This document shows, piece after piece, positions 1 through 38,369 of a stretch of 64,000 bases of DNA (position 1 is its first letter; every line of letters starts with the position of its first letter). A program made the translations under genes and the position numbers. The notes below the pieces were generated by a model. That model saw nothing but the letters and a program-made list of their open reading frames with translations. It searched no databases and was not told the origin of the DNA. The stretch spans positions 25,482,001 through 25,546,000 of the forward strand of contig OZ076420.1 in the NCBI GenBank assembly GCA_964187785.1, given 5' to 3'. The stretch is from Amphiscolops sp. MND2022 (Eukaryota).

Positions 1-1370
1 TTTTCTTGATTTTCCTGTTGCTCACTTCGCCCATCTCACGTTTGACAATCAAAGTGTTTATGAAAGTCTTGAATTTCCTCTTTCTGTTAGACCATACGCA
101 AAGCATACCCCTCAACTTCCATTTCCTTACAAACGATTCCCTCATCCTCCATCGTTTCAGTATTTACTCACCATATTGGTAACCCTCCTTCAAATTTAGG
201 TCCCCTCCTCCGCCTTCTTCACAACAACCCATTACTACTCGACCTTCAAATTCCTATTCACCACAACACTATAAGACTCATATCTTACACTCCTCCTCCA
301 ACAACTCCTATTACTACTCAACCTTCTATCTCCCATATTCATCAAGCTCTTCATCCAATTCCTATTTCTTTCCATAATACCATCACTACTCAACCCCAAC
401 CTCAATCTTCTCAAACATACGTTTTCCAAGTCTTTCGTCTTCTAATCGAAACGGCTCGTACAATGAATACCCATTAACTGTAAACCTCAAATGTAATGAA
501 ATGTTTACTCTTGGACTCCCAATTTGCTAACAAACGCCAAATCAAACAAATTTCTAAGTCACTTGAACCCTCCATTCTTTTCCATTCTCTCGTCAATATG
601 GTTCACTCTGAAGACATTACTCTTGGTAAAATTACCAACTTAGTAAATCACAAGAATTCAATACTCTCTCGGGCACCTTTCAACTGAATCTCCACAACTA
701 CATGCAGAAGATCCTAATATTAAAAATATTAAATCTAAACCTTAAAAGTATTGCTCTTTTTGGCATAAAAACAATCATTTCGTTTCCACCAGTTATCGTA
801 CCCTTAATATGCCTAAGGAATCTAAACCCCAATCAAAGTCAATCACTCCCTCTCTCGATCAACACTTTAGAGCACCAAAAAACAAATATAGGACTCAAAC
901 ACCTCCGTCGTTATTGTAGTCGACGTAATGGTAACCATTGTCAAAAATCGTCCCGAGAATCTCTAGAGAAATATCGTTCCCACTCTCGCTCAAACTCTTG
1001 TTCAAACTTTTATAATAGACACTCTCTTTATAATCTAGCTTCATTATGATCGCAATCGATCTCGCTGTGATCAATACTATAGAAAATCTCCTTCATGAAC
1101 GTATTATCTTTCTCGTCCATAATACAACCCTATATGATTAAATATTGCCCTATGAATATTTTTAAAAATTACCTCGGTTCTCGTGAACGCTCGTCTAGAT
1201 ATAATACCTCATGTTTTAGACAATATAAAGCACCATATCGTTCACCCTCTAAACAACGTACTGATCGTTGTCGAAGTCGATCACACTCACAACCTAACCA
1301 CGCTCTAATTAACCCTACCAACCCACTATTATTCTGACTCAGCAACCCACTTCCGCATTGCTCATTGCTC
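1..1370 (+). pseudogene. gag: gag-like region ending in an Arg/Ser-rich basic tail
   Basis: Lies upstream of the protease. A Pro-rich segment is followed by ORF 496-687 and then RS-rich fragments (RYRSHSRSNS, RSRSHSQP). No canonical zinc knuckle seen. Confidence 0.45.
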
Positions 1371-1374
1371 AATT

Positions 1375-1555
1375 CTAATGTTAGACCTAATTGAACACTT
1401 ACTCCAAACTTGTAGCTCCAATAACCTTGAAATCGCTCCTGAAAAATCGGTTTAGTTTCTCCTTACTCTCAAATTGTTCGGACATGTAATTGGCAACAAC
1501 ACTATAAAACGCATCTCCTCTAACATTGATGGAATAAACAACTTACAAACTCATA
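1375..1555 (+). pseudogene. Displaced reverse transcriptase fragment
   Basis: Translates MLDLIEHLLQTCSSNNLEIAPEKS..LKLFGHVIGNNTIKRISSNIDGI, paralleling 3270-3450 (MLDLCEQLHQSCISNNFKIAPEKAF..VKFLG). Confidence 0.7.
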
Positions 1556-1590
1556 ATTAACCCTCTGCAGAACCTACATTTGAAATAATT

Positions 1591-2034
1591 TTGTATCAGT
1601 TAACCACTTTTCATCATATGACATCTTCCACACTCACAAACAATCATGCTAATTCTATTACTGCTTCTACGTGGTTTGTCGACCTATACAACTTCAAGCC
1701 ACTGGAAGACTCCACTTTATCTTCTAAACTAAAACTTTATTTTCTGCAAGATAGCGGCGCTTTTATTGGTGTTTTGAACTTTCCCACATCCACAAAATCA
1801 GCTGACGAATTTCTCAAAAGTTTGAAATCTACTCCTTCCAAAACCGATTTTAAAACGCTCAGAGTAACAAATAAAGCTGAAGTACCTATAGTTTTCAATA
1901 TCATCCTGACATTACATACTTCTATTCATGGAAGTACTCGCACTATAGTTATCCAGTTTGCAGTAGCAATTATAAATTGGGACTCTTTTGGGCAAATAAT
2001 ATTCTTGGGACTCTTTTCGTTAATAAATATTTAA
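1591..2034 (+). pseudogene. pol: Retroviral-type aspartic protease
   Basis: ORF contains LYFLQDSGAFIGVLN (D-S-G-A active-site motif) at the expected position after gag. Confidence 0.8.
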
Positions 2035-2699
2035 AATTCTCACTTTTGAACAAAATTCACTCACATGAAAAACACCACAAGAATCTCATGTCACACTTAT
2101 TCTTTTGACCGCTCGTAAAGAGAATGATTACCCAAATTTCTCTCACCTCTGCACATAAAAAATTTTCAGAAAAACATATTTAAAACCTACCTCTTCACAA
2201 GTCATCGATTTTCTAATTAAACCCAGTCTTCCTCCAGTTTTCGCAAACTACGAAATTGAAATTATGTTTCTTTCAACGCCACATCCATATTTCAATACCC
2301 GTTTTACCTCTATTTTTAATTTTCTCCAAGAGTATCAAAACGCTAAAACTGAACCTTACAGTTGCTCTGTCATAATTCAGAACTCTTTACTCCGCAATTT
2401 TCTCGCCAGGATAGATTGTCTATTTTGAAATTCCTGTTACCATTATTGAAACACTTCACTATGAAGTTAGTGATGTCAACTCTATCATCAACACTACTTT
2501 TCATTCATATTATCCAGTTCTCTCAGATCCCAAACCTCCATTTTGTCGCTCCTCTTTTCAAAAACCTCTATTTAGGTTACCACCTTACAACCCTCTCAAG
2601 TTATAAACCACCTTCTTCGTTCTTCACCATTTTCACCAGACACTCGACATTTTCTTAATAAATTCAAGTTTCAGTATTCTGATGTCCTTGATGACGAAA

Positions 2700-3560
2700 A
2701 CTAAAAACTCTGCTCCATTTTGGTTAAATATCAACATTGTTATGATCACTTCGTATTGATGTTGGTAAAGTAGCTACACTTTTTCGAATTCGCCTCAAAC
2801 CTAATGCTAAACTTCATACTCAAAGACCCATCAAGGTACACTTCCATTGCAGAAAAAACTTAAAAAATACTCGATGAGTTAGAAACCCACAACATAATTA
2901 GAAAAATTGGTTCTACTCCCCCAGATAAACCCTTCTATGGTACTACTTTTTTGAACACACTCAAAATAATCCCTAAGGGAGATACTCTTAAATGCGTCTC
3001 AGATGTAAGACACTTAAACTCTAACAACGATCAATATTTTGAATCTTGGACTATTGAACTTCTAACTCCTCAAATCGCAGGAGCTAACAGAAATTTAATT
3101 CTGCAATTGATCTCATGTTCGCTTATGCACATGCCTCTTTAGATGAAGAAACTATTACTCTCACCAGTTTTTCATCTGGAGATGAGTTTTGTGCCTTCGC
3201 TCAATGTTTTTACGGTCCTAAAATACTCCCGAATTTTTTCACCAAACAAACGTGTTGCTCATACTGAAACTCCTATGTTAGACTTATGTGAACAGTTACA
3301 CCAGAGTTGTATCTCCAATAACTTTAAAATCGCTCCTGAAAAAGCATTTCATATTCTCCTACCTGTCAAATTCCTCGGACGGACATGGAATTGGCAACAA
3401 CATAATTAAACCCATCTCCGCTAAAATTGATGGAATACATAAATTATAAACTCCCACCTCTAAAACCGAATTATTGCGATTTATTGGAATTTTTAAATTT
3501 TACTCCAAATTTAACAACAAACTCCACATTTCATTGAAACCATTTACACTTTTCTACATG
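2700..3560 (+). pseudogene. pol: Reverse transcriptase (frameshifted, stops)
   Basis: Fragments LNTLKIIPKGDTLKCVSDVRHLNS, DEETITLTSFSSG and KIAPEKAFHILLPVKFLG match Gypsy RT blocks. Confidence 0.85.
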
Positions 3561-3639
3561 AAAGTTTTTCTTTTGAATGATTTCCTGAAGTAGATAACTC
3601 TTTAATGTTAATAAAACTGCCGTCTCAAAAGATACTGAA

Positions 3640-4060
3640 CTCGCAATCCCTAAAGCCACTCATTTTTTATATAATAATGTTGACGCTTCTCTTATTGTTC
3701 TCGTTGCAACATTTTTCCAACCCACCACCGATAACAAACTGCCGTTTATATCTTATAACTCTCGTGTTTTAACAACTCAAAGACAAAAACTTTCTACATA
3801 TGATCGAGCACTTTATGCTATAACTTTCGCCCTTTCTGACTTTGAATTTGTTATTATCGGCTCCAAACTCCCAATGAATATTTTTACAGATAACAACCCT
3901 CTTCTTTTTTCTTCCTCGAACATGATACATGACACCAAGACAATAAAAATGCTCAAATGGTATTAACAAACTTCTCAAATCTTCGGATTATTCACACTGC
4001 AGGTACTAGTCTAACTGTTAGTGATACGCTCAGTCGGGATTTTACAACTATTACAAATAA
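3640..4060 (+). pseudogene. pol: RNase H
   Basis: VDAS; ISYNSRVLTTQRQKLSTYDRALYAITFAL; IFTDN; IIHTAGTSLTVSDTLSR. Confidence 0.85.
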
Positions 4061-4949
4061 AACTTGTCAAATACAACTCACGAAGCTTCCACCACATATT
4101 GACTTTATTTTACTCAATCTTAATAACTCTTCCGAAAAAAATCAACTATTTAGTTAAACATGAAGATGTGTTACACGCAAAAAATTATTCACACCCAAAT
4201 CTAGTTGATTATGGTGAGGCCCAGTTCAGACTCCGCTTTCAAGATAATACTGTCACATACACTCCTCTTGATTCTTTTTCATTTCAATCCGTATGCTCCT
4301 TTTTGACTATATATAATAAACCTATTGAAAACGAAGTCAAAACATTACTCCAAAAAAACACTCTTTCAAATGAAACTGACTCGTATTAAAATGATGACCC
4401 AGTTACTAAAAGGTTTCGTCAACAAATTTCACACCCAACTCAAACGTCACATACTAATAATTCTCGTTTTTTTCTGAACTTCAATACCAACACTTTAATG
4501 ATTATCATCTTCCCGGAGACCTTCTAACAAATTAGACAAATTCTTGAAACCTAAATCCTGACAAATCTCTTCACACTAAAGCCATAACGCAAACTTCTGA
4601 TAAACACACCTCTACTCAATCATTGCCACTTTTTGACCCATCTTTTTTCGCTCATTGTAAAGCTTTTGAAACTCTTCCTCATAATACTTCCACGCAATAC
4701 CTTTTTAACAAAACCCACCCGAACTTAAAGCTCAAAAAGATGTAGCTGTTCTCTCCACTGTTTATACATGGTTAAAAAAACAACAAAACCATACACTTCA
4801 ACTGCAAGTAATAAAGCTAACTCTTTTTTTTACACGTACTACAAAAAATTTCACCGTTTATACAAAAACCGAAATTCACATCTCATCCATTACTGAACAC
4901 CTAACTCCCGTATATTTGAATCTTTGACTACCCAACCCTCTATTAACCA

Positions 4950-6110
4950 AACTCGCATTTGTTTACCATTGAGACACTTCTTTGCTGCTTTTGACAAAAC
5001 TCGTTCACAAGGCTACTCCCGTGAATAACTCTCCAATAAAACGTTTAAGCAATATTTCTATTTTCCACACATACCCATATAGTTTGCTATCTTCATTCAT
5101 GACTGAATTGAATGTCAAACAAACAAACAGTTCCCTATCAAACCAAATAATGTTCTTCTCCTCTACCAGTATACGAAAACGCCCCTCATTTTAATTATCG
5201 AATCTCAATCGACACAAAAGGACCTAAAACCCCTTCTTCACATTATAACTCCTACGTTTTGTTATAGTTGACGCTTTTAGGTATTTTGTAGTTACTAACC
5301 CAGCACCTCATATTTCTTTTAACTTAGCTATTCAAACACTCCTCAATCACTGGATTACTAAGTGTGCCCCCTCAATATCTCGTAACTGATCGAGGTACTG
5401 AATATACTAATCAAGATATGGCATTTCTTTGCTCTCTTTAATAAAACTCCTTCTCCACGTACTCCATTTTCTTCTCAGACAAATGGTTTAGTTGAAGCCC
5501 AGAGTTGTAACCTTGGAACTCATCTACGACTATTTTCACAAAATCATCCAACGAATTGTTCATTCCAAACCCAAGTGTATGCATACGCTCATAATACTAC
5601 TCCTCTTTATCAACCTGAACATTCTCCAAATGAAATTGTTTTTCATACACGCCCTTGTACCCCATTAACTTTTTCTCTTAACTTGATACGTAATTCTTCC
5701 AAAGAATGTATTGCCACAAACGGTGATTCACTTCAACCCCATACAAAACATAATGAAAAAAGTCTCAATCATTCTTTCACTCGCTCATTAAGAAACACTT
5801 TTCGTCATGGCTTTTATCAGCTGAAAAAGCAATGTTAGAAGTGTATTCCAACGTCATATAACTAACAATATAAAGTCACCAAACTCTACATTTGAAACAA
5901 CTCATTTGAATTAACTCCCGATTTGTATATTTAATATTCGCACTAACCTTAAACATCTCAAATTCTCAAATAAACGTAAGCCCCTCCGTCTTGGCCAATA
6001 TAAAATTCTTCAACATCTCCCAGGTGTTTCATTTGAACTCATGGCTCAAGATTACTCTACCTTTCATAATCATCAAAACCATGTTCTACCATATAATCCT
6101 AAAGAATCGG
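4950..6110 (+). pseudogene. pol: Integrase with GPY/F-like C-terminal module
   Basis: ISIDTKGP, VIVDAF, YLVTDRGTEYTN, SQTNGLVEAQ, YAYAHNT, then LGQYKIL...HQNHVLPY. Confidence 0.85.
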
Positions 6111-8189
6111 TAATTGTCCAATTTCTCCGTGAGTACAATTCTACTCCTCCACTTCCTAACAACCCTAACAATCTCACTCGATTCAATACAATCAAGAAAT
6201 ACAATTTGAATCTTTTAACCCAAATACTCCTTTTAAAACCATTGCTCAACCCCAAACCACTTTACCTTCCCCTTATACTTATCAAAACCTCCTCGACTAA
6301 AATCCTCTCAATGATACTCTAGATAATACATTTGACTCCAAATACTCCGATTTTGAAATCTTCAAAGTTCTGTTTATCCACATGTTCTAGTACTCCCTCA
6401 TACTTCTCCCAATTTTATCCGCATGTTGCTGAATCTCCCAACGATCCTTTTGAAGCTACATCTGAACTTCAAACTTTAGCCACTCATATTAGAACTCCTC
6501 ATTCACCCTATAAGTTACGTCCCTTTTCACGAAAAGATAATTATACCTCAAAACCCAATACTAGCTTGCCCCTTAACTCCGTATTTACCCTTTATTTACA
6601 TTAGCTTCGTATAGTCTACTTGCCTTGTCTCTTGTCTTGGCACCTCTTTATGTCTGACTTCTGACCTTCAAAATCTATTGATTAGCCCTTCCTTTATCTA
6701 CCTTCGGCTCATTTTTTCAACTTTCTTCTGTAAATGAAAAAACAAATGAAGAAGCACTTCTAGTCAACAACATTTTGAAATCTCGCACTAAAACACCTGA
6801 AATTTCCGTTTCCATCCTGGATCCTCATGTTCTTTTATCCTCTAGCTCAAAAGACTCTAACTAATCTGTTTCTTCCTCGGTTTCCACAAATACTAATAAC
6901 TCTTTTCAAACCTCTTCTTCAACATTACACCGTCCTCCTCCAAACCCTATACCTATTGTTCCTTCTTTAGACACCCTTTCTGCAAGTACTCTTCAACATA
7001 CCTCCAAAACCACTCATATCCCAAAAGTAACACCCCATAACTCTTCCTACCTCTTTTTGGCACTGAATTTCCCTTAACTCGTTTTGATATATTACCAGCT
7101 CCTTCCCCCCCACCCTCTCCTCTATATTCCTAGTGATGTAGACCAAGCACTCCTCAGAAATATAAATATACCTTACCTCGCAAATCAATCTTAATCCCTA
7201 CTCCAATCAAGGTCGTCGTAGACACTCTCTTTTTGACCCACCGCCTCCGAAACTTTTTGAACACACTCAAATTGAAACTTCGCTTCTACCTCCCAAACAT
7301 TAAATAATCCCTGTTCTTGAATCTTTTGACACTCTTAGTGAATAATACGCCTTAAGCGACATTGACTCTACAACGTTTTCTTTCGTTTATCCTCGTCTTC
7401 CTCTTTTGATGCCGTCTATAAACACACAACTTCTTCTTTAGATAATCTCTTGGAAAGCTCTTCTGAATTCACAATTCGAAAACCTTCGGTGTAACCTTCG
7501 GTAAAATCGTAACTCTACGCCTTCTCTAGCCAGCACTAACTCCTCTTTATTACGAGATCACGCTCAGTCTCTTTCTTCTGATCCTCTTTCATCTCACAAA
7601 AATATCCGAACTTCTGGTGTAGACATTGCTTTTTCACAACGCTCATCCATCTCTTCTTCCAATGCTACCGGAAAACTTTTTTTCCCAATTAACTTCTCTA
7701 AAGCCTAGTTTTCTTTCGTCTGGCAGTCATCTCCAAAACATTGACCTTTCCACCGATCAATACTCTACTCACTCTACACCTAATCGTGTTGATTTTTCTT
7801 CAATTGTAAATGATACTCTTGTTAATCATTCTCGTCAAATTCCTCAAGTTTCATATCTTGCTACTAATAAAATGAATTCTTATGCTCATTAGTCAGACGA
7901 AGTTGTCAAAAACATTTCAAAGACTAGAAACTGCTGTTCTAAATATCAAATTTGAAAAAAAACTAATTTTTAGCTAAACAGCTGAAAACTGATGTTAGTC
8001 CGATTCCTTCTCATACCACTGTTAAATTTAAATCATTACCTTATCCCTTTGTACTACCAACTGTAATCTCTTTGTTAGTGATCATCCTTTGTTTCGTCTT
8101 CTTCACAGTTGTATCACTTCCCTCAATACACTCACAGTTTTAAAACATACCGCCCAATTTTAACCTCTTTCCTCATTAGATCTCATTAT

Positions 8190-10200
8190 CAACATTCTTT
8201 TTTCCTCAAATATTGCTCAAATACTTCGTCCTATCCATTGTTTCTATAGACTTATCGACTATCCTACTTATCTAATCGAACTGAATGATCACCACAATTC
8301 TGACCTTTCAGTTCGTCACTATGACTGTTCCGAACAACATAACCTCCGTTAATTTTGTTTGCCTGAGTACAACCCTGTGCTGAAGCTGCTTCCTATCTCT
8401 AGAAAGCACTCGTGCTATCGCTAATGTTTTTGTCCGCGCTAAAGCCAAACGCCTCAAAGCATGGACCTGCGAAGCCTACGTTGAACGTGAAAAACTTGTT
8501 TGAGCTCAATCCGAATGTTACGCCGTCATTATCGTACTGATTATCATCAGAACACCATGGAAAGTTCTCGTACTTTAGACCCCACAGAATGCAAACATGC
8601 CGTTAGTCATTAATTCCAATCTCAAACTTAATGCTTTTGATTATTTAAACTCTTTCACCTTCTTTGATGATACTCAAAAACAACGCCTCCTTTTTGTACA
8701 ACGTAACTCAACACTTTTCATAATGTTTTCATGGCGATTTTGCTTGGATTGCAAACTATCAACTTGTTTTAAACGCAACTTAAACGCAACTTAAACGCAA
8801 AAAGCTGTTTGTTGGGACAGGCATGAATATCTAATTAAAAAAGACAGTGGGTCTTTAATTGTTAAAGAAATTGAAAGAACCAATGATGATAAAGATAACA
8901 CTTTATTCTATCATGGACACACTTTACCCTGTTTCCGCGATGACGGTTTGTGCAAAGCCACTATTTCAACAGAATTTACCATCGTTTGGCTCCCTGAAGA
9001 AGTTTTTTTAATTCTCTTAATTCTTTCCTTTATTGGACGTATGTCTAAACTCATTATTCGTTATTGTCTAGGAACACTTCAATCACAATAACTCTCACCT
9101 TCCTCTTGAAACACCATATCATAACTGCAAATCTCAATCTCGTTTTTCTCGTTTTGACATCTTACCCGAAAAAAAGCGTTTTGCAATAAACATACACCTT
9201 TATTTACTACCCAATACCCTGATTGCTTTATTACATATAATTAAGGCTTTCAGCTTCACACTAGTAAACGTAATCCTCGTCAATTATCTGGAGATGAACA
9301 ATAAGATAGACTCTCTACTCAACTTGTTTCCGGTGAACTAGTCCATACCTAAAACAAAATCCTTTTTCCTGCTCTAAAATCCTCAAACAATTCTTGCTAC
9401 TAATGACTACGAAGTTCATATTACTGAGATCGAATATTATATTTTTCATGTTATTGAAACTATATCAGTTGCTGAACCTAACACTCTCCTCACTATTTCT
9501 GAAGTTGAACAAACTCCACTCTTAACAATCCTCCCAATGTCTGTTAAAATTCCACAACTTGCTGGTTTTCTCCTAACTCAAAATTGTAGTAACTTGTTTA
9601 ATGTCGAAGGCTCAACTGCCTGGCTCTATGATTGCTCTCATCATCTCTCTCTATATATCTACCATGTCCATTATCTCCTCTTTGTCTTTGCCTCTTTCGC
9701 TAACATCTGTCACTCACGAACTTCCTAACAACGTTTATGACCCAACTACTTTTGAAAAAGTTCCTAATCCTGATCCTACATTACCTGAAATCAAACCTCG
9801 TTTTTTTACTCAAACTACTACAGTATATACTCAACCTCTTTCTTAAACTCTCAAAAACAGTCATTCACCTACTCCTCCAGCCTACAATCTTCAAGTCACA
9901 ATTGATAATTACACCATTCCTCCAAAGAAAATATTAAATTTTTTTTAGAAGATTCTGTTTTTATTGAATCTAGTATACTGCCTTCCACTTTGCACCATCT
10001 TAAAACTCCCTCTCAATCTAATACTATGACTGATGAATTTCTTCGCACTCATCCAAATTTTAAACAAACTTCTTTTCTTTATATATGACTCCTACTACTT
10101 ACAAATTTCGTTTTCCAGGTCGTAATTTTGATCATTTTGTTGCACATACCTCCAAAGAATTTGAACAACTCTCTTTCTAGCAAACTAAACGTATACGCTT
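8190..10200 (+). pseudogene. env: env-like glycoprotein remnant, class III fusion (herpes gB / chuvirus G-like) pattern
   Basis: A hydrophobic leader precedes RHYDCSEQHNLR..VQPC..AKRLKAWTCEAYVEREKLV*AQ..TLDPTECKHAV, then LPCFRDDGLCKATISTEFTIVWLPEE and AGFLLTQNCSNLFNVEGSTAWLYDC. The Cys spacing resembles chuvirus-like G proteins as I recall them. Confidence 0.6.
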
Positions 10201-10399
10201 TTTCCAATTCCAATGTAATTTCTTGAAACCCACTCAACATGATCTTGATACAAACCCTAATGTTATAACCACCTCTCCTTCTGTAAAGAAAACTCGATCA
10301 TCAAACCCATCATCTCTTTTTAGAACAGGAACATTTTCAAAGTTTTATTTTCCAAAGTCACAAATTTACTTCACCTCTCTTTTATTACTTTCGCTATTC

Positions 10400-11420
10400 T
10401 TTAAATCACCTTTATACTATCGGTATCATTCGTAACTATGACATTGTAAAACAATATTATAACATTGCTTCATACCATGATCCCACTCGTCCTCTTTTTG
10501 TTCCTCAAGAAGCCCGGAGTCTTAACGATGACTTTCTACTTGGTACTCATATTCCTAACAGTGTTGATAACTGCGTCCGACGAATGAATGAACTTGTTGA
10601 AACTCCATTTTATGACCCCTCTCGGTCTCTCTGCACACTTCACTTGTACATACACAATACTCCATCGCACAACTGACCTTAATAATTTTTAAACTCTACT
10701 TCTTTGTTCTGAAATAAAAACTAAACAATTTCTTTCCTACCTCCACTAATATCCCAGAAGAAAGTATTATTGCTCTGCTTAAACTAATACTTTCATCCTT
10801 TTCAACAATTGACACTTCTCAAATTCCTAATATCTTTTATTCCACCTCCTACTTCCTCATATGTTCTTCAAACTAAAAATCCTAATGTCTGTATTAACTC
10901 CTTCCAATGTTGACTGTTGAACTTTTCCAAAATTCTCAAACTTCTCCGTCCACATGTCGAAATAGCCTTGATTCTTTTGTTGTTCTCCATCATATATTTG
11001 ATTTCTATAGAACTCATCAAAAACTTCTCCAACTTCATTCAAATGACAACCATACTCTCACCATTTTTACTCTCCACGATAATGACTCTTTAGGATACGT
11101 ATGCCGCAAAAATGGAAGAATTTATCAAACAAATTTTTCCTACCTCCACTAATATCCCAGAGGAAATTATTATTGTTCTGCTTAAACTAATACTTTCATC
11201 CTCTTCAACAATTGACACTTCTCAAATTCCTATTATATCTTTTATTCCACCTCCTACTTCCTCATATGTTCTTCAAACTGTAAATGTAAAGTGTAAACTG
11301 TAAACTTCAAGTGTAAAGTGTCTTTTCCGTGAAACGAGAGCGAACCGTATTCTAGTCAAACAGTGCATCGTGTTCATCGCGGATTGTGATGCACAGTGTA
11401 ATCAGAAATTGCGGATTGTT
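10400..11420 (+). pseudogene. Extra 3' ORF of element A, unknown function (second copy 12030-12900)
   Basis: IGIIRNYDIVKQYYNIASYHDPTRPLFVPQE...RMNELVETPFYDPSRS is repeated as ORF 12018-12281. The C-terminal FIIKCKVYFP..NRILVKQCIVFIADCDAQCNQKLRIV is also found at 47417-47602 (-). Confidence 0.55.
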
Positions 11421-13500
11421 CTCATTGAGCGTACGTAATTAGATAAAAGAGGAAACCAAACATACTTTGGTACACACCGTGAGTAAAAATAACTCCAAAC
11501 GATGCTTCCATTCATGTGTGAAGTGAAAACCAGTCAAAGTACGTAATTGTAGAGATCGTAAAGAACTCATTTACTCTATTTTGATCACTTCTCGTAACGC
11601 CAAAACACACTGTGTAACGAGCAAAACTCGAAACGCGTATCTGAAAAGACAACGCGTTTATATTGGCTGTTAATCGACCTAGCAACATCTTGCTAGTTCG
11701 TTTCGGCATACTTATCGTAATGCTTTCTCAAGAAACCTATACTCCTTGAAACTTCATCTAATCTTCCCATTTTCTCCTAATATTATCTCATTTCTCCGCT
11801 CTAGCTCTTTTCGTCTAATTTGTATAACTTCCTCTAAACACACCTTGTTGGCAAAATCTCCCACAAAATTGTAGCAAAGATATAAATGTATAATTTCGCT
11901 TTTGTAAATCTTTAATAGCTCTGCTCTGTCTTATTTTGTCTCCACTAATTTCTTGTCTTTTCAAAATGTCATTCAAAAAGTAAGTTCTACCACATTTATC
12001 CTACTTATCATTCAAAAATGACACGTTTTAAGTTAAATCAGCTCTATATTATCGGTATCAATCGTGATTATGACAATGTAAAACAATATTACATCATTGA
12101 TTCATACCACGATCCCACTCGTCCTCTTTTTGTTCCTCAAGAAGCTCTTAGTCTTGACGATGACTTTCTACTTCGTACTCAAAACCCTAACAGTGTTGCT
12201 AACTGCTTCCCAAGGATGAATGAACTTGTTGAAACTCCATTTTATGACCCCTCTCGGTCTGTCTCCACACTTCACTTGTAAATAAACAATACTCCATCGC
12301 ACAACTGAACTTCATCATTGCTAAACTCTCCTTCTTCATTCTGAAAAAAAAACTAGACAAATTTTTTTCCTACCTCCACTAATATCCTAGAAGAAATTAA
12401 TATTGCTCTGCTTAAACTAATACTTTCATCCTCTTCAACAATTGACACTTCTCAAATTCCTAATATATCTTTTATTCCACCTCCTACTTCCTCAAATGTT
12501 CTTCAAACTGTAAATCCTAATGTCTGTATTAACTCCTTCCATTGTCCTACTGTTGAACTTTTCCCAAAATTCTCAAACTTCTCAGTCCACTTGTCGAAAT
12601 TGCTCTGATTCTTTTGTTATTCGCAATCACATTTTTGATTTCTATAGAACTCATCAAAAACTTCTCCAACGTCATTCATTCAAATGACAACCAAACTCTC
12701 ACAATGTTTACTCTCCACAATAATGACTCATTACGATACGTCTGCCGCAAAAATGGACCCATTTATCATCAAGTGTAAAGTGTATTTTCCGTGGAACGAG
12801 AGCGAACCGTATTCTATTCAAACAGTGCATCGTGTTCATCGCGGATTGTGATGCACAGTGTAATCAGAAATTGCGGATTGTTATCATTGAGCGTACGTAA
12901 TTAGATAAAAGTGGAAACCAGTCAAATTTCGGTACACACAGTGAGTAAAAAAACTCCAAACGATGCTTCCATTCATGTGTGAAGTGAAAACCAGTCAAAG
13001 TAGGCAATTGTAGAGATCGTAAAGAGGTCATTTACTGTATTTTGATCACTCCGCGTAACTCCAAAACACACTGTGTAACGAGCAAAACTCGAAATGCGTA
13101 TCTGAAAAGACAACGCGTTTATTTTGGCTGTTAATCGAACTAGCAACATCTTGCTAGTTCGTTTCGGCATACTTATTGTAATGCTTTCTCAAGAAACCTA
13201 TACTCCTTGAAACTTCATATATTTGTCCCATTTTCTCCTAATATTATATCACTTCTTCTCATTAGATCTTTTCTTCTATTTTGTATCCTTTTCTCTAAAA
13301 ACACATTCTTGGCAAAATCTCCCACAAAATTGTAACAAAAATATAAATGTACAGTTTCGCTTTAGGAAATCTTTAATAGCTCTGCACTGTTTTATATTGT
13401 CTCCACTAATTTCTTGTCTTTTCAAAATGTCCTTCGAAAAGTAAGTTCTACCACATTTATCCTTTTTATCATTCAAAAATGACACGTTATAATTGACATC
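10400..13500 (+). repeat. ~1.63 kb direct tandem duplication (10400-12030 vs 12030-13500) with an internal ~150 bp duplication (10725-10873 vs 11127-11280)
   Basis: ORF pairs such as 11512-11709 and 12973-13170 are nearly identical and the DNA aligns by eye. Confidence 0.9.
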
Positions 13501-13972
13501 AATAAATCTCAGGTCATTTTCCTCCTTTTTTGACGTCTTTTTGTATAACACTTTTGTTCTTAAGTTTTGTCCCAATTGTCTCGTTTTTCTCACAGAAGAA
13601 GACACTTTTTCAATTTCTCAAAATGTGTAATCTGATTAACACTTTTCCCACAATACAGTTACTTTGTAAAATCCAAAAAACTAATATTTTCCATTTTCCG
13701 ACTAAAGTTTTTTCTTTCAACTTTGACTTCGTTGCAATCATTAGCTCAATCACTAGCTCAATCGCTACTCTATCACTTTCCTCCCTTTTGGAACTTCGAA
13801 TTGAATATTCTTCTTTTTTTAGATACTTCTTTTGAAGTATCCGCTACAAAATTTTGGATCTTAGAGTATTTCATTTCTTTCGCTGCTTCTTTAAAAGCAA
13901 ATTTGAATTTCAAATAATTCTGATCCTTTCAAACTTCTAACTGCTTGTTTCAAGCATCCTTCACTTTCACAC

Positions 13973-14542
13973 TGTAACAGCTGCTGGCCCTTATCTTGCT
14001 CTGAAGCTTGACAAGATTTACGCCCCCGTGATCCGTAGTTTAGTACTGTGGACCGTTACTAAACAAATCCTGGTTGTCGTGTCTTAAAGGACTCTATCTT
14101 TTGGCTGGTGGTTCCTATGTGACCTGAAGGATCTCCTGCGATCCCTTTTTGCACCTAGGTAGATCTTCTGAGACCCGCACAGACTCCCCTCACTGTACCT
14201 TCACGCGCTCCGGCTCTCCAAATATAAGAGTAGCAACTTAGTTGCTCTGACCGTAGCGATAGGATGTGAAGCTTGAGAAGTCGATTAAATAGTCTCTTGG
14301 TCCTAAGACCCAGCTTGGCTATGGCAATCCAGTCGTCAAAAATCACTATCTAGGAGTGGTATATATCTGGTTTAAAATTGTTCAGTAAATATAGAGCAAA
14401 AATCAGTTGAAATATTTTGTATGAATAAATGACATTCAAGTGAATTATTGAAGTTAATGGCTCTGTAAACAAACTATATGGTGGTTTTGGCATGTTGCGT
14501 AGGTGGACAAATATAAATATCCTTAATTTCATCACAGTTACA
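13973..14542 (+). mobile_element. Putative solo LTR (~570 bp)
   Basis: Starts TGTAAC and ends GTTACA, with a TATA-like tataag near 14223 and AATAAA near 14426. No target-site duplication visible. Confidence 0.5.
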
Positions 14543-17274
14543 TTCTAACGAGGTCATATGGGTAAGTAACGAACTTTGCATTTTCGACTCGGTATCACAC
14601 ATGTGAGAGAAAAAATGTGTGATAATGGGCGAAAACCTTGAAACTTAACCGGTGAGTTGGTGTTAGGCACCTGCATACGTGTGCCAAGTTTCAAGGCTGT
14701 ATGGCTAACAGTCTTTAAGAAAACCCATTTGGAGGGGGTTAAAGATTCATGACGATTGAATTTTCTTCAATTTTTCATCTCAGTTTCGAAGCGCTTAAAA
14801 TCTTGTTTCTCAACCACCATCTTCCAAATCGACTGACATTATCTGCCTGCTGATGACTGGCGCCAACATCTACATCTTTCTTACGCCACTGTTTCATCAA
14901 TAATTTTTAACCACAACGCGAAATAACAGTTTAAACTGCCACTCGGCAAAAATAGCAACATTTCCAAAAATAACCAATTCACCAAAAGTGTGTTTTAGTA
15001 ATCACTTTTGAACTTCCTTCTTCATTTCATCATGACATCTCTTTCTTCGTCCACACTTCTTATAATCACATGCAAATTCCCCCTTCTTTTCTTTTTAACC
15101 CGAATCTTTTCTTCTGTATGAGTATTCACTCTACAGGTTTTTATTTAATGCCATTGTTTCTCAAAACTGTAAAAGTTCCAAAGAAATCTCTTTTATAAAG
15201 TACTTTGTGATTTGAAAAATTCGATTTTTCACCTTTTTCACCACTTTCAGTCTTTAAATTTATCCCTCTTCATTTTAACGTACAATTTTCGAGGTATTTT
15301 CTACTTTCTTTTACAAAAATCATCCTATTAAATAACATGTTTTAATCCACACTCCATATTTTCACCGAGCAACTCCTATAAATTTTAAATGACACTCCTC
15401 GATAACTTCAGTTTTAAACACCTCTTCTTCAAATTTCAAGTCCTATAATTACAATAGAAGCTTACTCACCTCACTCAGTGGCTCCCACTCAAATGAATCT
15501 TTTAGACCTCGCTCTTCCAATGCCTAAATATCAAAAAAAATTACCCGCTAAGTATGAACAACTCCTGAATGAATTTTACTTATATTAGAGATTTGTTTTT
15601 GAAATGAATGAACTTTAATTACACCTATTTGCGACTGGAGCTCTTTCAATCATGTCCTCTTTTAGTTTGTACGACATGACGTCAAAGATCAATGCTTAAG
15701 TTGAACTGAAAACTTTGTATCTTCGTCTGTCAGTTGCTTCATATTTGTCAAAACGGCCGCCAATTCTGACCTCTCTTACTGTTACTTTTTTCCATGTCAA
15801 TATCCGTTTTCTATTGTAACTCGTTCTCTTTCAATAACTGTTCCATCGTTACTCGCTTTTTCAAAAACCACTCGCAATATACAAAGATGAAATAATTCAA
15901 AACGATAAAATAATTGAAATACGAAAAACTCCAAAGCAAAAATTCCGAAAGGTATAACCAAAATAAAAATTAATCGAATCCTTACACCTCTTAACTCCAC
16001 GCAAACTACAAAATGATCAGACTTCCACTAGGTTAAAATGTCTCCAGCAAGAAATTGCATATTCGCCCTCACCTCACGTAAGGAAAGAACAATTAAAGGA
16101 AAGAAAAAAACATAAAAGCATGATGTAAAAACAAAAACACAGCTCTAAACTAAAAATCACCTTTTAACACTTCCTCTGGTTCTTCTGAACTTTGAAATTA
16201 ACTCTTTTACTATATTAAACCAAACTCAGACATCTGTTTTGAACTCCATCATTTTTTGTGAATTCCACTACATTCTTTGATTAATCATTTTGGCTTAATT
16301 TTTTTTCGAAACCCGGCCGGATGATATACCTATGATATAATACTTTTTAATCACCCCCCTTGCTGCCCATTGTCTGAATGTCTAGGCTTGTACTCGCTGC
16401 TTTGAATTTCAATGTATTTCATTTGTATTCAATACTCAATACTTATTCTATCTGTAAAGCACTTCTTGATTTATAACTATTCACAACGATAATAAATCTC
16501 TAAACCTCCTACCATCAAGTTGTCACTTCTTCAGGCCTACTAACACTGCAACTATGAAGGAGTCTTTTAATATACTGACCATCTCTGAAATAATCATCGA
16601 ACTTAACAATCCAACAACAATTCAAAGTACTTTACAAGACAGTGAAGAAATTAAAGTGTTTTCAGAATTGATTGAAACAGTTGACGCTGTAATATAATCC
16701 TAAAAAAATGAGCCCGTCAGGTTCCCGCAATTTTTCATGTTTTGTGAAAATTTAGGTTTATGAAGCATAGAAAAGTTTTCGCATATAAAAATTGCGGGCG
16801 AATTCAGATAGTGCAACTTTTTTGGAAAGTGTTTCATATGTTTCAAAAGGCCAACCCGAATACCAAATGATCACAATTGCTAAGAGTGTCCCTTCAATTG
16901 TAATTTTGTCATGCAAAAGTCAGGACGTTTTACGAAGTGTGACTTTGTAGAACAAGAATTGAGGAACTGTATTTCGACAATGGAACAAAATGGAAAAATT
17001 CGTTTCATATTTTTATCCTATCTTGAAGATCACATTTATTGATTTTTTGTCCAATGTTTTCCTGGTTTGCAACTCGGACACTCAGGTTGAGCCTAAGTTT
17101 AGACTTCAGAATTCTAAGCTGCATGATAAAACAAGGTTCAACAAGGCTGAAAATAGAAATGTTTTGTGGAAATCGCTAAGATCAAATATTTGGAAAACTT
17201 CCATTATTTTTATAAGTCCAAAAACCCTCGACATTTTAGAATCTTGAAGGTCCCAAACTAATGTTTTTGCATCA

Positions 17275-17691: not shown

Positions 17692-18387
17692 TCAAACGCC
17701 ATTTTTTGAAACATTCGGAGACTTGAAAAGTAGTGAAAATGATGGGAAAGTTTCTCGATTGTTTCCGCAAGCGTACTCATAATTGCTCGCAGACCATTGA
17801 TAAGGGTCTGTATTGAAAAAAAGGTCGACTTGTTTTTGCTCCATCCAAGAAATTGTTCTTGTAAGAGCTTCTGAAGGACATTTAGTCAAAATAACATCCG
17901 TGGTATCTGCAAAAACTACATATTCATACTCTTTCCATATATGATAATTCTGCTTCAGGGAGTTCAGCTTTCTGAAGCCTGGAGGTAACTCATTCTTTCT
18001 TTTTGCGAAGCCGTAGTTGCAGTTGAGATTCAAAAACTGGTACCCAAAAATACGTAAAGCGTTTGCTAGATGAACGTGGCAAAAAGTATCCAGGTTGGAA
18101 ACAGTGACCCATAAAAGTCTTTTTACGGAAACACAGTTTTCTTGGGAAACGGTCAAGTTCAACAGCTTGGAAATATGAACCTGGAAATGATTGAACAATC
18201 CAGCTAAATTGTACCTTTTGCAAGCAACTTCGACTCTCTCGAATCTTGGACTGAATGGGGCATCTTTTTGCTGTTTGAGATGGATAACCGGAGCCGAAAT
18301 CTCTTTGAATTTCTTCATCAAATCTCCAATCTCCAGTTCATGTGTCAAGGGTATAGACGGAAGTTGTTCCTCAGAGATTTCGAACAC
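17692..18387 (-). CDS. 231-codon ORF/exon resembling the glycosyltransferase domain of PLOD/lysyl-hydroxylase-like proteins
   Basis: KLNSLKQ..EYEYVVFADTTDVILTKCPSEAL..VDLFFNTDPYQW resembles the PLOD GT pattern K..L..vlFtDsyDVi..gpeel..fsaE..cWP. Gene boundaries and functionality are unknown. Confidence 0.5.
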   Translation of the reverse strand: MFEISEEQLPSIPLTHELEIGDLMKKFKEISAPVIHLKQQKDAPFSPRFERVEVACKRYNLAGLFNHFQVHISKLLNLTVSQENCVSVKRLLWVTVSNLDTFCHVHLANALRIFGYQFLNLNCNYGFAKRKNELPPGFRKLNSLKQNYHIWKEYEYVVFADTTDVILTKCPSEALTRTISWMEQKQVDLFFNTDPYQWSASNYEYACGNNRETFPSFSLLFKSPNVSKNGV

Positions 18388-19049
18388 TTGAAGATGGTTC
18401 CGGGTTATAATATTCTATTTTTGAGCAAAACTTTGTTTTTGTTTTGGAATTTAAAAACAAATTAAACTTCATGGAACCAAAAAGTTTAATCACATGAATG
18501 ATACTTTGGTATAATTTTTGTGCGCAATGTTAGTTTGATTATCCCCTCAAAGTTCCTCGAGAATCATCAAAGTTGCAGTTTATTCAACAAAATTAGTTTG
18601 TTCTATCAAGAGTAACCTAAAAGAACTTCATAAAAAGGGTATCATTTTCAACAGTAATTAATAGACGAGATACTCACTTTTGAATGGAAATCATTTATGA
18701 CTTGTAATGAAATAGAAATTCATGCAATGAAAAAGTCGAGATAACGAATGAAATGTCGGTATGGACTTTTTCGAGATGGACTTTAGGATGATTTTTGTTT
18801 TTTTTTTCTAACAAAAAACATGGTAAAAGTTCTATTTTCTACTCGTTGTTCTTTCAACTATGTAATATTTGTCACTTTTCACATCAACCATCAACCCCAA
18901 TACTCTGTATCAGGTCAGCGTGCTTTGAGACAGTAGATTCAACAAGGATTTTTGATAGGATCGGATGAACGTTTCCTCTCCATGAGTTTTGCAGAGCCAA
19001 CCTGTCGAAAAGTTTTTTTTCTTTTCGAGGTTAAAACCTACTGATCACT

Positions 19050-20502: not shown

Positions 20503-22176
20503 AGTAGTTTGCACGCTAACGTTTTTGTAACGTCCACCTACCTGGTGGACCTGTTGGAACCCTGTTAGATGTTGTTCCCCTACTTCAATGTATTTCACCT
20601 AAGTGCCATTTTTGGACCTCGGAAGCATATAGCAAGTTGCAGGAACTTTAGGATTTGTTTTCACAGGCTAGTGGACCGTGTCCGCATTTGCGAGTACCGG
20701 CACGTTGGCTCAGAGCTCTAACATAAGAGCCTTCTTGACGTTTAAAAAGTCCCAAATTTCTCAAACTTCTCCGTCCACTTGTCGAAATTGCTCTGATTCT
20801 TTTGTTATTCGCAATCCAATTTTTATTTCTATAGAACTCATCAAAAACTTCTCCAACGTCATTCAAATGACAACCAAACTCTCACAATGTTTACTCTCCA
20901 CAATAATGACTCATTACGATACGTCTGCCGCAAAAATGGACCCATTTATCATCAAGTGTAAAGTGTATTTTCCGTGAAACGAGAGCGAACCGTATTCTAG
21001 GCAAACAGTGCATCGTGTTCATCGCGGATTGTGATGCACAGTGTAATCAGAAATTGCGGAGTGTTATCATTGAGCGTACGTAATTAGATAAAAGTGGAAA
21101 CCAGTCAAATTTCGGTACACACAGTGAGTAAAAATAACTCCAAACGATGCTTCCATTCATGTGTGAAGTGAAAACCAGTCAAAGTAGGCAATTGTAGAGA
21201 TCGTAAAGAAGTCATTTTTTGTATTTTGATCACTCCGCGCAACTCCAAAACACAAGCAAAACGAGCTTGACGAGCTGTGTAACGAGCAAAACTCGAAATG
21301 CGTATCTGAAAAGACAACGCGTTTATTTTGGCTGTTAATCGAACTAGCAACATCTTGCTAGTTCGTTTCGGCATACTTATCGTAATGCTTTCTCAAGAAA
21401 CCTATACTCCTTGAAACTTCATCTATTTTTCCCATTTCTCCTAATATTATATCACTTCTTCTCATTAGCTCTTTTCTTCTATTTTGTATCCTTTTCTCTA
21501 AAAACACATTCTTGGCAAAATCTCCCACAAAATTGTAACAAAAATATAAATGTACAATTTCGCTTTTGTAAATCTTTAATAGCTCTGCACTGTTTTATAT
21601 TGTCTCCACTAATTTCTTGTCTTTTCAAAATGTCCTCCGAAAAGTAAGTTCTACCACATTTATCCTTTTTATCATTCAAAAATGACACGTTATAATTGAC
21701 ATCAATAAATCTCAGGTCATTTTTCCTCCTTTTTTGACGTCTTTTTGTATAACACTTTTGTTCTTAAGTTTTGCCCTAATTGTCTCGTTTTTCTCACAGA
21801 AGAAGACACTTTTTTAATTTCTCAAAATGTGTAATCTGACTAACACTTTTCCCACAATACAGTTACTTCGTAAAAACCAAAAAATTAATATTTTCCATTT
21901 TCCGACTAAAGTTTTTTCTTTCAACTTTGACTTCGTTGCAATCATTAGCTCAATCACTAGCTCAATCGCTACTCTATCACGTTCCTCCCTTTTGGAACTT
22001 CGAATTTAATATTCTTCCTTTTTTAGATACTTCTTTTGAAGTATCCGCTACAAAATTTTGGATCTTAGAGTATTTCATTTCTTTCGCTGCTTCTTTAAAA
22101 GCAAATTTGAATTTCAAATAATTCTGATCCTTTCAAACTTCTAACTGCTTGTTTCAAGCATCCTTCACTTTCACAC

Positions 22177-22746
22177 CGTAACAGCTGCTGGCTCTTATCT
22201 TGCTCTGAAGCTTGACAAGATTTACGCCCCCGTGATCCGTAGTTTAGTACTGTGGACCGTTACTAAACAAATCCTGGTTTTCGTGTCTTAAAGGACTGTA
22301 TCTTTTGGCTGGTGGTTCCTATGTGACCTGAAGGATCTCCTGCGATCCCTTTTTGCACCTAGGTAGATCTTCTGAGACCCGCACAGACTCCCCTCACTGT
22401 ATCTTCACGCGCTCCGTCTCTCCAAATATAAGAGTAGCCACTTAGTTGCTCTGACCGTAGCGATAGGATGTGAAGCTTGAGAAGTCGATTAATTAGTCTC
22501 TTGGTCCTAAGACCCAGCTTGGCTATGGCAATCCAGTCGTCAAAAATCACTATCTAGGAGTGGTATATATCTGGTTTAAAATTGTTCAGTAAACATAGAG
22601 CAAAAATCAGTTGAAATATTTTGTATAAATAAATGACATTTAAGTGAATTATTGAAGTTAATGGCTCTGTAAACAAACTATATGGTGGTTTTGGCATGTT
22701 GCGTAGGTGGACAATCATAAATATCCTTAATTTCATCGGAGTTACA
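22177..22746 (+). mobile_element. Duplicated copy of the putative solo LTR at 13973
   Basis: Near-identical sequence with ends cGTAAC...GTTACA. Confidence 0.5.
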
Positions 22747-26062: not shown

Positions 26063-26758
26063 TCAAACGCCATTTTTTGAAACATTCGGAGACTTGAAAA
26101 GTAGTGAAAATGATGGGAAAGTTTCTCGATTGTTTCCGTAAGCGTACTCATAATTGCTCGCAGGCCATTGATAAGGGTCTGTATTGAACAAAAGGTCGAC
26201 TTGTTTTTGCTCCATCCAAGAAATTGTTTTTGTAAGAGCTTCTGAAGGACATTTAGTCAAAATAACATCCGTGGTATCTGCAAAAACTACATATTCATAC
26301 TCTTTCCATATATGGTAATTCTGCTTCAGGGAGTTCAGCTTTCTGAAGCCTGGAGGTAACTCATTCTTTCTTTTTGCGAAGCCGTAGTTGTAGTTGAGAT
26401 TCAAAAACTGGTACCCAAAAATACGTAAAGCTTTTGCTAGATGAACGTGGCAAAAAGTATCCAGGTTGGAAACAGTGACCCATAAAAGTCTTTTCACGGG
26501 AACACAGTTTTCTTGGGAAACGGTCAAGTTCAACAGCTTGGAAATATGAACCTGGAAATGATTGAACAATCCAGCTAAATTGTACCTTTTGCAAGCAACT
26601 TCGACTCTCTCGAATCTTGGACTGAATGGGGCATCTTTTTGCTGTTTGAGATGGATAACCGGAGCCGAAATCTCTTTGAATTTCTTCATCAATTCTCCAA
26701 TCTCCAGTTCATGTGTCAAGGGTATAGAAGGAAGTTGTTCCTCAGAGACTTCGAACAC
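26063..26758 (-). CDS. Duplicate of the 231-codon glycosyltransferase-like ORF
   Basis: I counted 12 substitutions versus the first copy; the frame is intact. Confidence 0.5.
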   Translation of the reverse strand: MFEVSEEQLPSIPLTHELEIGELMKKFKEISAPVIHLKQQKDAPFSPRFERVEVACKRYNLAGLFNHFQVHISKLLNLTVSQENCVPVKRLLWVTVSNLDTFCHVHLAKALRIFGYQFLNLNYNYGFAKRKNELPPGFRKLNSLKQNYHIWKEYEYVVFADTTDVILTKCPSEALTKTISWMEQKQVDLLFNTDPYQWPASNYEYAYGNNRETFPSFSLLFKSPNVSKNGV

Positions 26759-27499
26759 TTGAAGATGGTTCCGGGTTATATTATTACATTTTTGTGCAAA
26801 AATTTGTTTTTGTTTTGGAATTTAAAAACAAATTAAACTTCATGAAACCAAAAAATTTAATCACATGAATGATTCTTTGGTATAATTTTTGTGCGCAATG
26901 TTAGTTTGATTATCCCCTCAAAGTTCCTCGAGAATCATCAAAGTTGCAGTTTATTCAGCAAAATTAGTTTGTTCTATCAAGAGTAACCTAAGAGAACTTC
27001 ATAAAAAGGGTATCATTTTCAACAGTAATTAATAGACAAGATACTCACTTTTGAATGGAAATCATTTATGACTTGTAATGAAATAAAAATTCATGCAATG
27101 ATAAAGTCGAGATAATGAATAAAATGTCGGTATCGACTTTTTCGAGAAGGACTTTGGGATGATTTTTGTTTTTTTTCTCACAAAAAACATTGTAAAAGTT
27201 CTATTTTCTACTCGTTGTTCTTTCAACTATGTAATATTTGTCACTTTTCACATCAACCATCAACCCCAATACTCTGTATCAGGTCAGCGTGCATCGAAAC
27301 ATTCTTTTCAACTCCGAAAAAGTTTCAGAGAACTTAGCGGTAGCGGTATTGGATTCCACTTGATTCTACAAAGACAGTAGATTCAACAAGGATTTTTGAT
27401 AGGATCGGATGAACATTTCCTCTCCATGAGTTTTGCAGAGCCAACCTGTCGAAAAGTTTTTTTTTCTTTTTGAGGTTAAAACCTACTGATCACTATCTG

Positions 27500-38366: not shown

Positions 38367-38369
38367 CAG

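What the first reader, a model, noticed from the sequence alone, without database searches (positions are those of the whole stretch)
8190..10200. Gypsy element with a class III (gB/chuvirus-like) fusion glycoprotein env
Seen: downstream of integrase lies a ~650-codon decayed ORF with a leader and the pattern YDC-x~17-C, C-x10-C (second Cys now TGA), xxxEC, C-x5-LC-x9-W and G-x-xxW/LYDC. Known: class III envs occur in BEL/Pao elements (nematode Tas gB-like, insect chuvirus-G captures), whereas classical Gypsy errantivirus envs are baculovirus F-like. Inference: an independent env capture producing a potentially infectious Gypsy lineage.
Basis: partly seen in the sequence, partly recalled or inferred. 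Interest (0 to 1): 0.7.

Follow-up and report, generated by a model that had tools for sequence, protein, structure and literature searches.

The report
Broken Gypsy element with gB-like envelope
This is a broken, half-deleted copy of a large jumping-gene family whose younger copies keep a well-conserved gene predicted to fold like the membrane-fusion protein of herpes- and chu-like viruses, likely letting the element pass between cells; that combination is already published for many animals, so this is an unusually large new example rather than a new kind.

Summary
The class III call is right; the novelty claim is not. Window 8170-9659 is the decayed 5' half of an env gene in a dead Ty3/Gypsy element. 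The 3' half is deleted, so the '650-codon ORF' is env codons ~1-499 followed by part of a different gene. Young relatives are 18.9-kb elements with 340-bp LTRs: gag-pol, ORF2, env (841-918 aa), ORF4, ORF5. Their env hits Pfam Monjiviricetes_fusion (E 9e-28), its model matches xinmo-/chuvirus G (E 1e-26) and herpes gB (E 1e-11), and it is under strong purifying selection (dN/dS 0.04-0.17). Across seven elements the env and pol trees have the same topology, so env is ancestral to this clade, not freshly captured. gB/chuvirus-type envs in Ty3/Gypsy are published across animals (PMC13524379), and this scan noted them in other genomes. Unusual here: size, a long-stemmed pol clade, conserved accessory ORFs, and a TRAF/MATH gene after env in three sister families. 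Infectivity is untested.

The parts
1..1301 (+). Decayed gag region (the gag-pol frame starts left of the window)
   Evidence: tblastn with the gag-pol of a young copy: hits at 2-109 and 447-1301, and in the left neighbour L037 9311-9999
1357..1552 (+). Stray duplicate of a piece of RT
   Evidence: direct repeats D12/D13; tblastn aa 1490-1554
1579..3619 (+). Decayed protease region and reverse transcriptase
   Evidence: tblastn aa 913-1610, several frames
3598..6145 (+). Decayed RNase H, bridge, integrase zinc finger, core and C-terminus
   Evidence: PF17917 E 8.6e-11; tblastn aa 1604-2455
6961..8160 (+). Decayed ORF2 (Ser/Pro-rich, no ATG in young copies, function unknown)
   Evidence: tblastn E 1.5e-53; dN/dS 0.13-0.45 among young copies
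8170..9659 (+). 5' half of a class III (gB/chuvirus-G-like) env, with stops and frameshifts; start position approximate
   Evidence: tblastn aa 30-499 of the natural env, 8275-9659; 71% DNA match 7999-9649; motifs
9650..9762 (+). Junction of a deletion of about 1.7 kb that removed the 3' half of env and the start of ORF4
   Evidence: DNA match to a young copy stops at 9649 (L024:1851) and resumes at 9840 (L024:3630); protein match resumes at 9763
9763..11104 (+). Decayed ORF4 (conserved accessory gene, no known family)
   Evidence: tblastn E 2e-72; no Pfam hit; dN/dS 0.08-0.21 among young copies
12003..12678 (+). Local duplicate of part of ORF4
   Evidence: repeat D7, spacing 1632; tblastn E 9e-40

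Best explanation
The stretch is the broken 5' half of an envelope gene in a dead copy of a large Ty3/Gypsy LTR element; in young copies of the family the gene is intact and conserved, encodes a protein predicted to be a class III (gB/chuvirus-G-like) membrane fusogen, and likely lets virus-like particles pass from one cell to another, probably soma to germline. Shown: Gypsy-type pol, LTRs, 4-bp target duplications, recent copies, env-pol linkage, purifying selection on env, and env-pol co-divergence. Inferred: that Env is made as a signal-peptide-bearing trimeric surface protein from a subgenomic RNA, inserts its fusion loops into a target membrane and refolds to fuse it, as gB and rhabdovirus G do (established knowledge). 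The element is an env-carrying Ty3/gypsy of the published HSV/gB type, with extra accessory ORFs.
For: Pfam PF24664 E 8.9e-28, also on four sister-family envs. Model pLDDT 77, pTM 0.59. Foldseek viral: top hits xinmovirus, chuvirus and related G proteins, E 1e-26. Foldseek PDB: all listed rows herpesvirus gB, best E 1.3e-11. VIA Z 11.6, rmsd 15 A, 428 aligned to VZV gB; rabies G Z 7.0. Twelve ectodomain cysteines are near-invariant in the 44 long rows. RT-RH is closest to Ty3 RT (E 2.8e-33) against caulimovirus 6e-22 and foamy virus 1e-17. LTR pairs 98.8-99.7% identical in 7 of 7 copies examined (one aligned over 203 bp only); perfect 4-bp TSD in 5 of 7. Env dN/dS 0.04-0.17 over 15 non-independent pairs of 6 copies, against 0.13-0.21 for gag-pol. 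Same 7-taxon topology for pol and env, all 4 splits, UFBoot 100 except one 83. Published precedent.
Against: Whole-chain TM-scores are low (0.2-0.4) with high rmsd, so the fold match is by domain content and order, not a rigid superposition. Sequence searches of the PDB found 0 hits. The family-A membrane anchor is weakly hydrophobic (Kyte-Doolittle peak 1.41, against 1.76-2.83 in six relatives). Purifying selection shows that env is useful to the element, not that particles infect. The soma-to-germline route is an analogy to Drosophila F-type errantiviruses; the eLife paper itself says the entry mechanism of gB-type elements is unknown.
Confidence: 0.8

Rival explanations
1. Independent capture: this pol clade took a Monjiviricetes-type G from an RNA virus on its own, separately from the published gB-type errantiviruses. 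If so it happened at the base of the clade, not recently.
For: RT-RH of the clade sits on a 1.43-substitution stem (SH-aLRT 100, quick tree) apart from 20 other Gypsy proteins; identity drops from 40-50% to about 30% outside it. The nearest structures are negative-strand RNA virus G proteins rather than gB. The eLife paper concludes that several Ty3/gypsy lineages contributed.
Against: The motif C-x10-CG-x1-3-H is found in 16 of 29 envs of this clade. Some read CGMHSH, like the published Insecta_C1 rows and close to the planarian C1a rows (compared by eye), which fits a shared pool as well as a separate capture. No published errantivirus pol or env was in my trees, and the 20 outgroups were mostly unnamed.
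Confidence: 0.3
2. Env is kept for a non-infectious role, such as particle budding, trafficking within a syncytial tissue, or superinfection block.
For: No expression or particle data were available; family A has a long Pro/Ser-rich tail of variable length (841-918 aa ORFs) and a weakly hydrophobic anchor.
Against: The whole ectodomain, with fusion-domain strands, central helix and cysteine skeleton, is kept across elements only 24-29% identical, which is what a working fusogen would need.
Confidence: 0.15
3. A viral glycoprotein fossil or a BEL/Pao env landed by chance next to a Gypsy pol.
For: The window copy alone is too decayed to show LTRs.
Against: Env lies inside LTR pairs in six families. 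21 of 39 env hits have a listed RT hit 4.8-5.9 kb upstream; this is a lower bound, as 53 of the 98 RT hits were given to the script. The same pol-ORF-env order occurs on an unrelated metagenome contig.
Confidence: 0.01

Closest known systems
HSV/gB-type env-carrying Ty3/gypsy 'errantiviruses' (Chary and Hayashi, eLife 2026, PMC13524379; read: abstract, sections 5 part 1, 6, 7, 8, 9 part 1, 14, 22, and parts of supplementary files 1, 2 and 6)
   Same: Ty3/gypsy pol; gag-pol-env order; gB-like class III ectodomain with signal peptide, anchor and conserved cysteines; recent multi-copy insertions; env diverging with pol; furin site not conserved (none in 29 of 29 envs here).
   Different: 18-19 kb in five of six families here; an ORF or 1.5-3.5 kb spacer between pol and env; one or two accessory ORFs after env. 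The paper's first-pass filter for non-insect genomes allowed 1 kb between pol and env and 10 kb in all, though later manual steps looked 3-5 kb further. Position relative to its clades was not testable.
Anakin and other mosquito BEL/Pao elements with chuvirus-like glycoprotein (Dezordi et al. 2020, PMC7642597; seen only as search listing and as cited in PMC13524379)
   Same: Same glycoprotein family (Monjiviricetes/chuvirus-like G).
   Different: The carrier here is Ty3/Gypsy by RT similarity and Pfam domain set, not BEL/Pao.
Burro/GYPSM1 giant gypsy-like elements of planarians (Arkhipova and Yushenova 2019, PMC6431247; passages read)
   Same: Giant gypsy-like element with env homology to mononegavirus fusion glycoproteins and a MATH/TRAF domain as cargo.
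   Different: Burro has env in frame between gag and protease and is about 30 kb; here env is a separate ORF after pol, and TRAF/MATH (sister families C, D, F only) is a separate ORF just before the 3' LTR.
Glycoproteins of Xinmoviridae, Chuviridae and related negative-strand RNA viruses (Pfam PF24664)
   Same: Best profile and predicted-structure matches.
   Different: 13-15% identity over the structural alignment; carried by a reverse-transcribing element. Direction of transfer is unknown.

Membership tests
Ty3/Gypsy (Metaviridae) | Domain order gag, PR, RT, RNase H, integrase | tested here: met
   Retrotrans_gag, RVT_1, RT_RNaseH, Integrase_H2C2, rve, SH3_Tf2-1 in order; protease hits in sister families; same order in the window
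Ty3/Gypsy (Metaviridae) | RT closer to Ty3 than to retro-, caulimo- or spumaviruses | tested here: met
   phmmer against PDB: Ty3 E 2.8e-33, caulimovirus 6e-22, foamy 1e-17, MLV 6e-9; GyDB profiles were not available
Ty3/Gypsy (Metaviridae) | LTR pair, 4-6 bp target duplication, primer-binding site | tested here: met
   Young copies: LTR TG..TA, 4-bp TSD in 5 of 7, TGG-starting PBS-like 12-mer; matching tRNA not found with one guessed pattern; no LTR left in the window copy
HSV/gB-type errantivirus (operational group of PMC13524379) | Ty3/gypsy pol plus env with gB-like fold in one LTR element | tested here: met
HSV/gB-type errantivirus (operational group of PMC13524379) | Placement in an 'ancient errantivirus' pol clade; 'mini' domain in the RNase H-integrase bridge | not tested
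   Published pol sequences could not be brought into the tree; the bridge was not folded
Class III viral fusogen | gB/G-like domain set and order | tested here: met
   PF24664; Foldseek E 1e-11 to gB and 1e-26 to xinmo-/chuvirus G; VIA Z 11.6, rmsd 15, 428 aligned
Class III viral fusogen | Signal peptide and C-terminal membrane anchor | tested here: inconclusive
   N-terminal hydrophobic peak 1.6-1.9 in six of seven; anchor peak 1.76-2.83 in six relatives but 1.41 in family A; long C-terminal helices in the model; anchor deleted in the window copy
Class III viral fusogen | Trimer and membrane-fusion activity | not testable with these tools
   Three ectodomains exceed the complex-folding size limit; fusion needs an experiment
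BEL/Pao (Anakin, Tas) | BEL/Pao-type gag, protease and RT | tested here: not met
   Pfam scan at E up to 1 gave the Gypsy-type set and no Pao-specific family; RT best matches Ty3
Troyka (PMC12440569; abstract, introduction and start of methods read) | CG..CG termini and 3-bp TSD | tested here: not met
   TG..TA termini and 4-bp TSD
Burro-like giant elements | env in frame between gag and protease | tested here: not met
   env is a separate ORF downstream of pol in all six families and in L079

The most novel reading that the evidence does not exclude
A deep-branching, uncatalogued clade of 'complex' enveloped Gypsy elements (12-19 kb) acquired a Monjiviricetes-type class III fusogen on its own long ago, is still spreading between cells as an infectious agent in this animal, and surrounds env with accessory genes, among them a captured TRAF coiled-coil/MATH protein that blunts host innate-immune or death signalling, much as complex retroviruses use accessory genes.
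Probability: 0.2. Interest if true: 0.65.

Novelty: new variant of a known kind. Interest (0 to 1): 0.36.

Why it matters
The pairing of Gypsy pol with a gB-like env is published, so the finding as written adds an example, not a concept. What the locus offers beyond that is a genome with at least six coexisting, recently active env-bearing families whose envs span 27-63% identity and track their pols. That is a natural series for asking how a gB-like fusogen works without gH/gL partners and whether such elements really move between cells, which the eLife paper leaves open. The conserved accessory ORFs and the env-TRAF linkage in sister families suggest that these elements manipulate host signalling; TRAF cargo is otherwise described for planarian Burro, and my two searches listed no other case.

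Tried and rejected
Pfam on the window's own three frames read with X: 0 hits for env, too decayed. Sequence searches of PDB with one env and with the 95-row profile: 0 hits. Sequencing runs: none was listed, so expression is unaddressed. The ESM Atlas gave no result for P0002 or P0132. Viral contigs: no relative confirmed among 5 and 30 pattern matches. Cluster look-ups returned no names for 6 and 10 env proteins, so hosts of the distant relatives are unknown. ORF4 fold: pLDDT 46.6, not searched further; its 30 homologs are all unnamed ENA proteins without Pfam. tRNA for the primer site: 0 matches with one guessed pattern. The careful RT tree did not finish; the quick tree is quoted. The 30-row env tree has long-branch warnings and its deep joins are not relied on. 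Rows left out of the 7-element trees: family G (L118/L119, broken pol and env) and the P0301/P0136 pair (linked only by equal contig length). Host phylum was not established. From recall I guessed an acoel-like host, untested; 'acoel', 'Xenacoelomorpha' and four genus names have 0 occurrences in the text and 7 supplements of PMC13524379, which matters only if the guess is right. Troyka, BEL/Pao and Burro membership were rejected (see Membership tests). The figures of PMC13524379 that define the cysteine-bridge classes could not be seen, so no class is assigned.

Full report
Observation. Window 1-14,000 is strongly C-rich and G-poor on the + strand and holds one decayed LTR-element body. The window's frames alone give no Pfam hit for this region. 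A DNA search of the own genome with 8300-9000 gave 556 candidates, 40 scored; the 39 other copies are 72-74% identical. In 7 of those 19 fetched, the frame is open from its start to the end of the fetched stretch.

Anatomy of the window copy. Mapping proteins of young copies onto the window gives gag remnants (1-1301), PR-RT (1579-3619), RH-IN (3598-6145), ORF2 (6961-8160), env codons 30-499 (8275-9659) and ORF4 (9763-11104), plus a local duplicate of ORF4 (12003-12678). The DNA match to a young copy breaks at 9649 and resumes at 9840, about 1.7 kb further on in the family sequence. The '650-codon ORF' is therefore half an env followed by part of another gene. The copy lacks the anchor and tail and has no detectable LTR. 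Three other old copies keep env sequence beyond codon 500, so the deletion is particular to this copy.

The family. Young copies (family A) are 18.85-18.87 kb with 340-bp LTRs. LTR pairs were found in 7 of 7 copies examined, 98.8-99.7% identical, with TG..TA ends, a PBS-like 12-mer and a perfect 4-bp target duplication in 5 of 7. The layout is gag-pol (one frame of 2590-2650 codons, uninterrupted in 3 of 10 upstream stretches), ORF2 (about 480 codons, no ATG), env (848-925 codons stop to stop in 6 of 9 downstream stretches), ORF4 (about 530) and ORF5 (313). Pol has the Gypsy domain set and its RT-RH is closest to Ty3 among solved structures. RT-RH lies upstream of env in 10 of 10 fetched stretches.

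The env protein. It hits Pfam PF24664 Monjiviricetes_fusion at E 8.9e-28. A profile search of 1.84 billion representatives found 3181 proteins at E up to 0.001 and 342 at 1e-30. A model from 95 rows (pLDDT 77, pTM 0.59) matches xinmovirus, chuvirus and related G proteins best (E 1e-26) and herpesvirus gB in the PDB (E 1.3e-11; VIA Z 11.6, rmsd 15, 428 residues). Whole-chain TM-scores are only 0.2-0.4, as expected for a hinged monomer but a real limit on the match. Twelve cysteines are near-invariant. No furin motif was found in 29 of 29 envs. Pairwise dN/dS over codons 36-725 is 0.04-0.17 among six young copies, lower than gag-pol (0.13-0.21). ORF2 (0.13-0.45), ORF4 (0.08-0.21) and ORF5 (0.27-0.32 in 5 of 6 pairs; 1.04 in one pair with 8 differences) are also constrained. 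Pairs are not independent.

The clade. The genome holds further env families: B (51% identical to A; 50 of 50 scored hits at 98-99%), C and D (27% to A), E and F. One copy each was shown to be LTR-bounded (99.0-99.95% LTR identity; 12.2-19.4 kb). A metagenome contig of very different base composition has the same pol-ORF-env-ORF order. In a quick RT-RH tree these and seven database proteins form one clade on a 1.43 stem against 20 other Gypsy proteins. For the seven elements with both genes, pol (1008 columns) and env (641 columns) give the same unrooted topology, one of 945 possible. Env was thus present at the base of the clade. Families C, D and F carry, inside the LTRs and after env, a coiled-coil plus TRAF/MATH ORF (PF21355 E 8e-22, 2e-22, 3e-6). 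Families A and B carry ORF4 there instead, which has no known family and gave no usable model.

Mechanism. Shown: a recently replicating Ty3/Gypsy family keeps a class III-like glycoprotein under strong constraint. Inferred from class III fusogens in general: surface trimer, fusion-loop insertion and fold-back. Inferred by analogy to Drosophila errantiviruses: particles made in somatic cells enter the germline. No expression or particle evidence could be obtained. I put about 0.8 on the identity plus a fusion role, and less on the soma-to-germline route.

Comparison with what is known. [quoted passage not shown] They also recovered 114 gypsy elements with chuvirus-like glycoproteins using mosquito BEL/Pao baits. 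The motif C-x10-CG-x1-3-H in 16 of 29 envs of this clade (absent from families A and B themselves) resembles, by eye, their Insecta_C1 and planarian C1a rows. Planarian Burro already combines giant size, a mononegavirus-like env and MATH/TRAF (PMC6431247). This scan's notes report the same combination in other genomes and reach the same paper; I had read the paper before seeing them. No note matched this env by sequence.

Verdict. The combination is known, the window copy is a dead fragment, and independent capture is open but would be ancient. The size, the long-stemmed pol clade and the accessory genes make it a variant worth cataloguing. Interest 0.36.

Noticed in passing
L063:2959-3729, L065:2733-3884, L114:3098-4120: Sister env-bearing families C, D and F carry a coiled-coil plus TRAF/MATH ORF between env and the 3' LTR; C and D versions are only 27% identical. 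TRAF cargo is described for Burro but in another layout.
   Followed up: partly
L064:131-5689, residues 378-437: Weak Macro-domain hit (E 0.02, below the curated cut-off) between protease and RT in family D pol.
   Followed up: no
L021:8422-9906, L068:303-1556; window 6961-8160: ORF2 between pol and env has no ATG in most copies, overlaps the env frame by a few codons, and is under purifying selection; how it is translated is unexplained.
   Followed up: partly
L022:3377-4960; window 9763-11104: ORF4 is conserved in families A, B and G (33-42% between families), has no Pfam hit and gave a low-confidence model.
   Followed up: partly
L079:1-15400: A-rich metagenome contig with the same pol clade, a 1032-codon ORF before env and a 617-codon ORF after it, none with Pfam hits: a second host for this lineage.
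   Followed up: partly
L049:8247-10000 and L037:1-213: A second decayed env-bearing copy lies 10-12 kb left of the window, directly before the window's element.
   Followed up: no
window 11288-16663 and 20748-24872: Nested local duplications: 1.46-1.64 kb repeats and an 8.2-kb segmental duplication at 97-98% identity; the 240/252-codon minus-strand ORFs at 17692-18414 and 26063-26821 are a near-identical pair, possibly exons of a host gene.
   Followed up: no
window 36267-38402 (-): Remnants of another Gypsy-like element (RNase H, integrase zinc-finger and C-terminal motifs recognised by eye).
   Followed up: no
family A LTRs, e.g. L024:7800-8139: LTRs end in TA rather than the usual CA, and the primer-site motif matched no tRNA with one guessed pattern.
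   Followed up: partly
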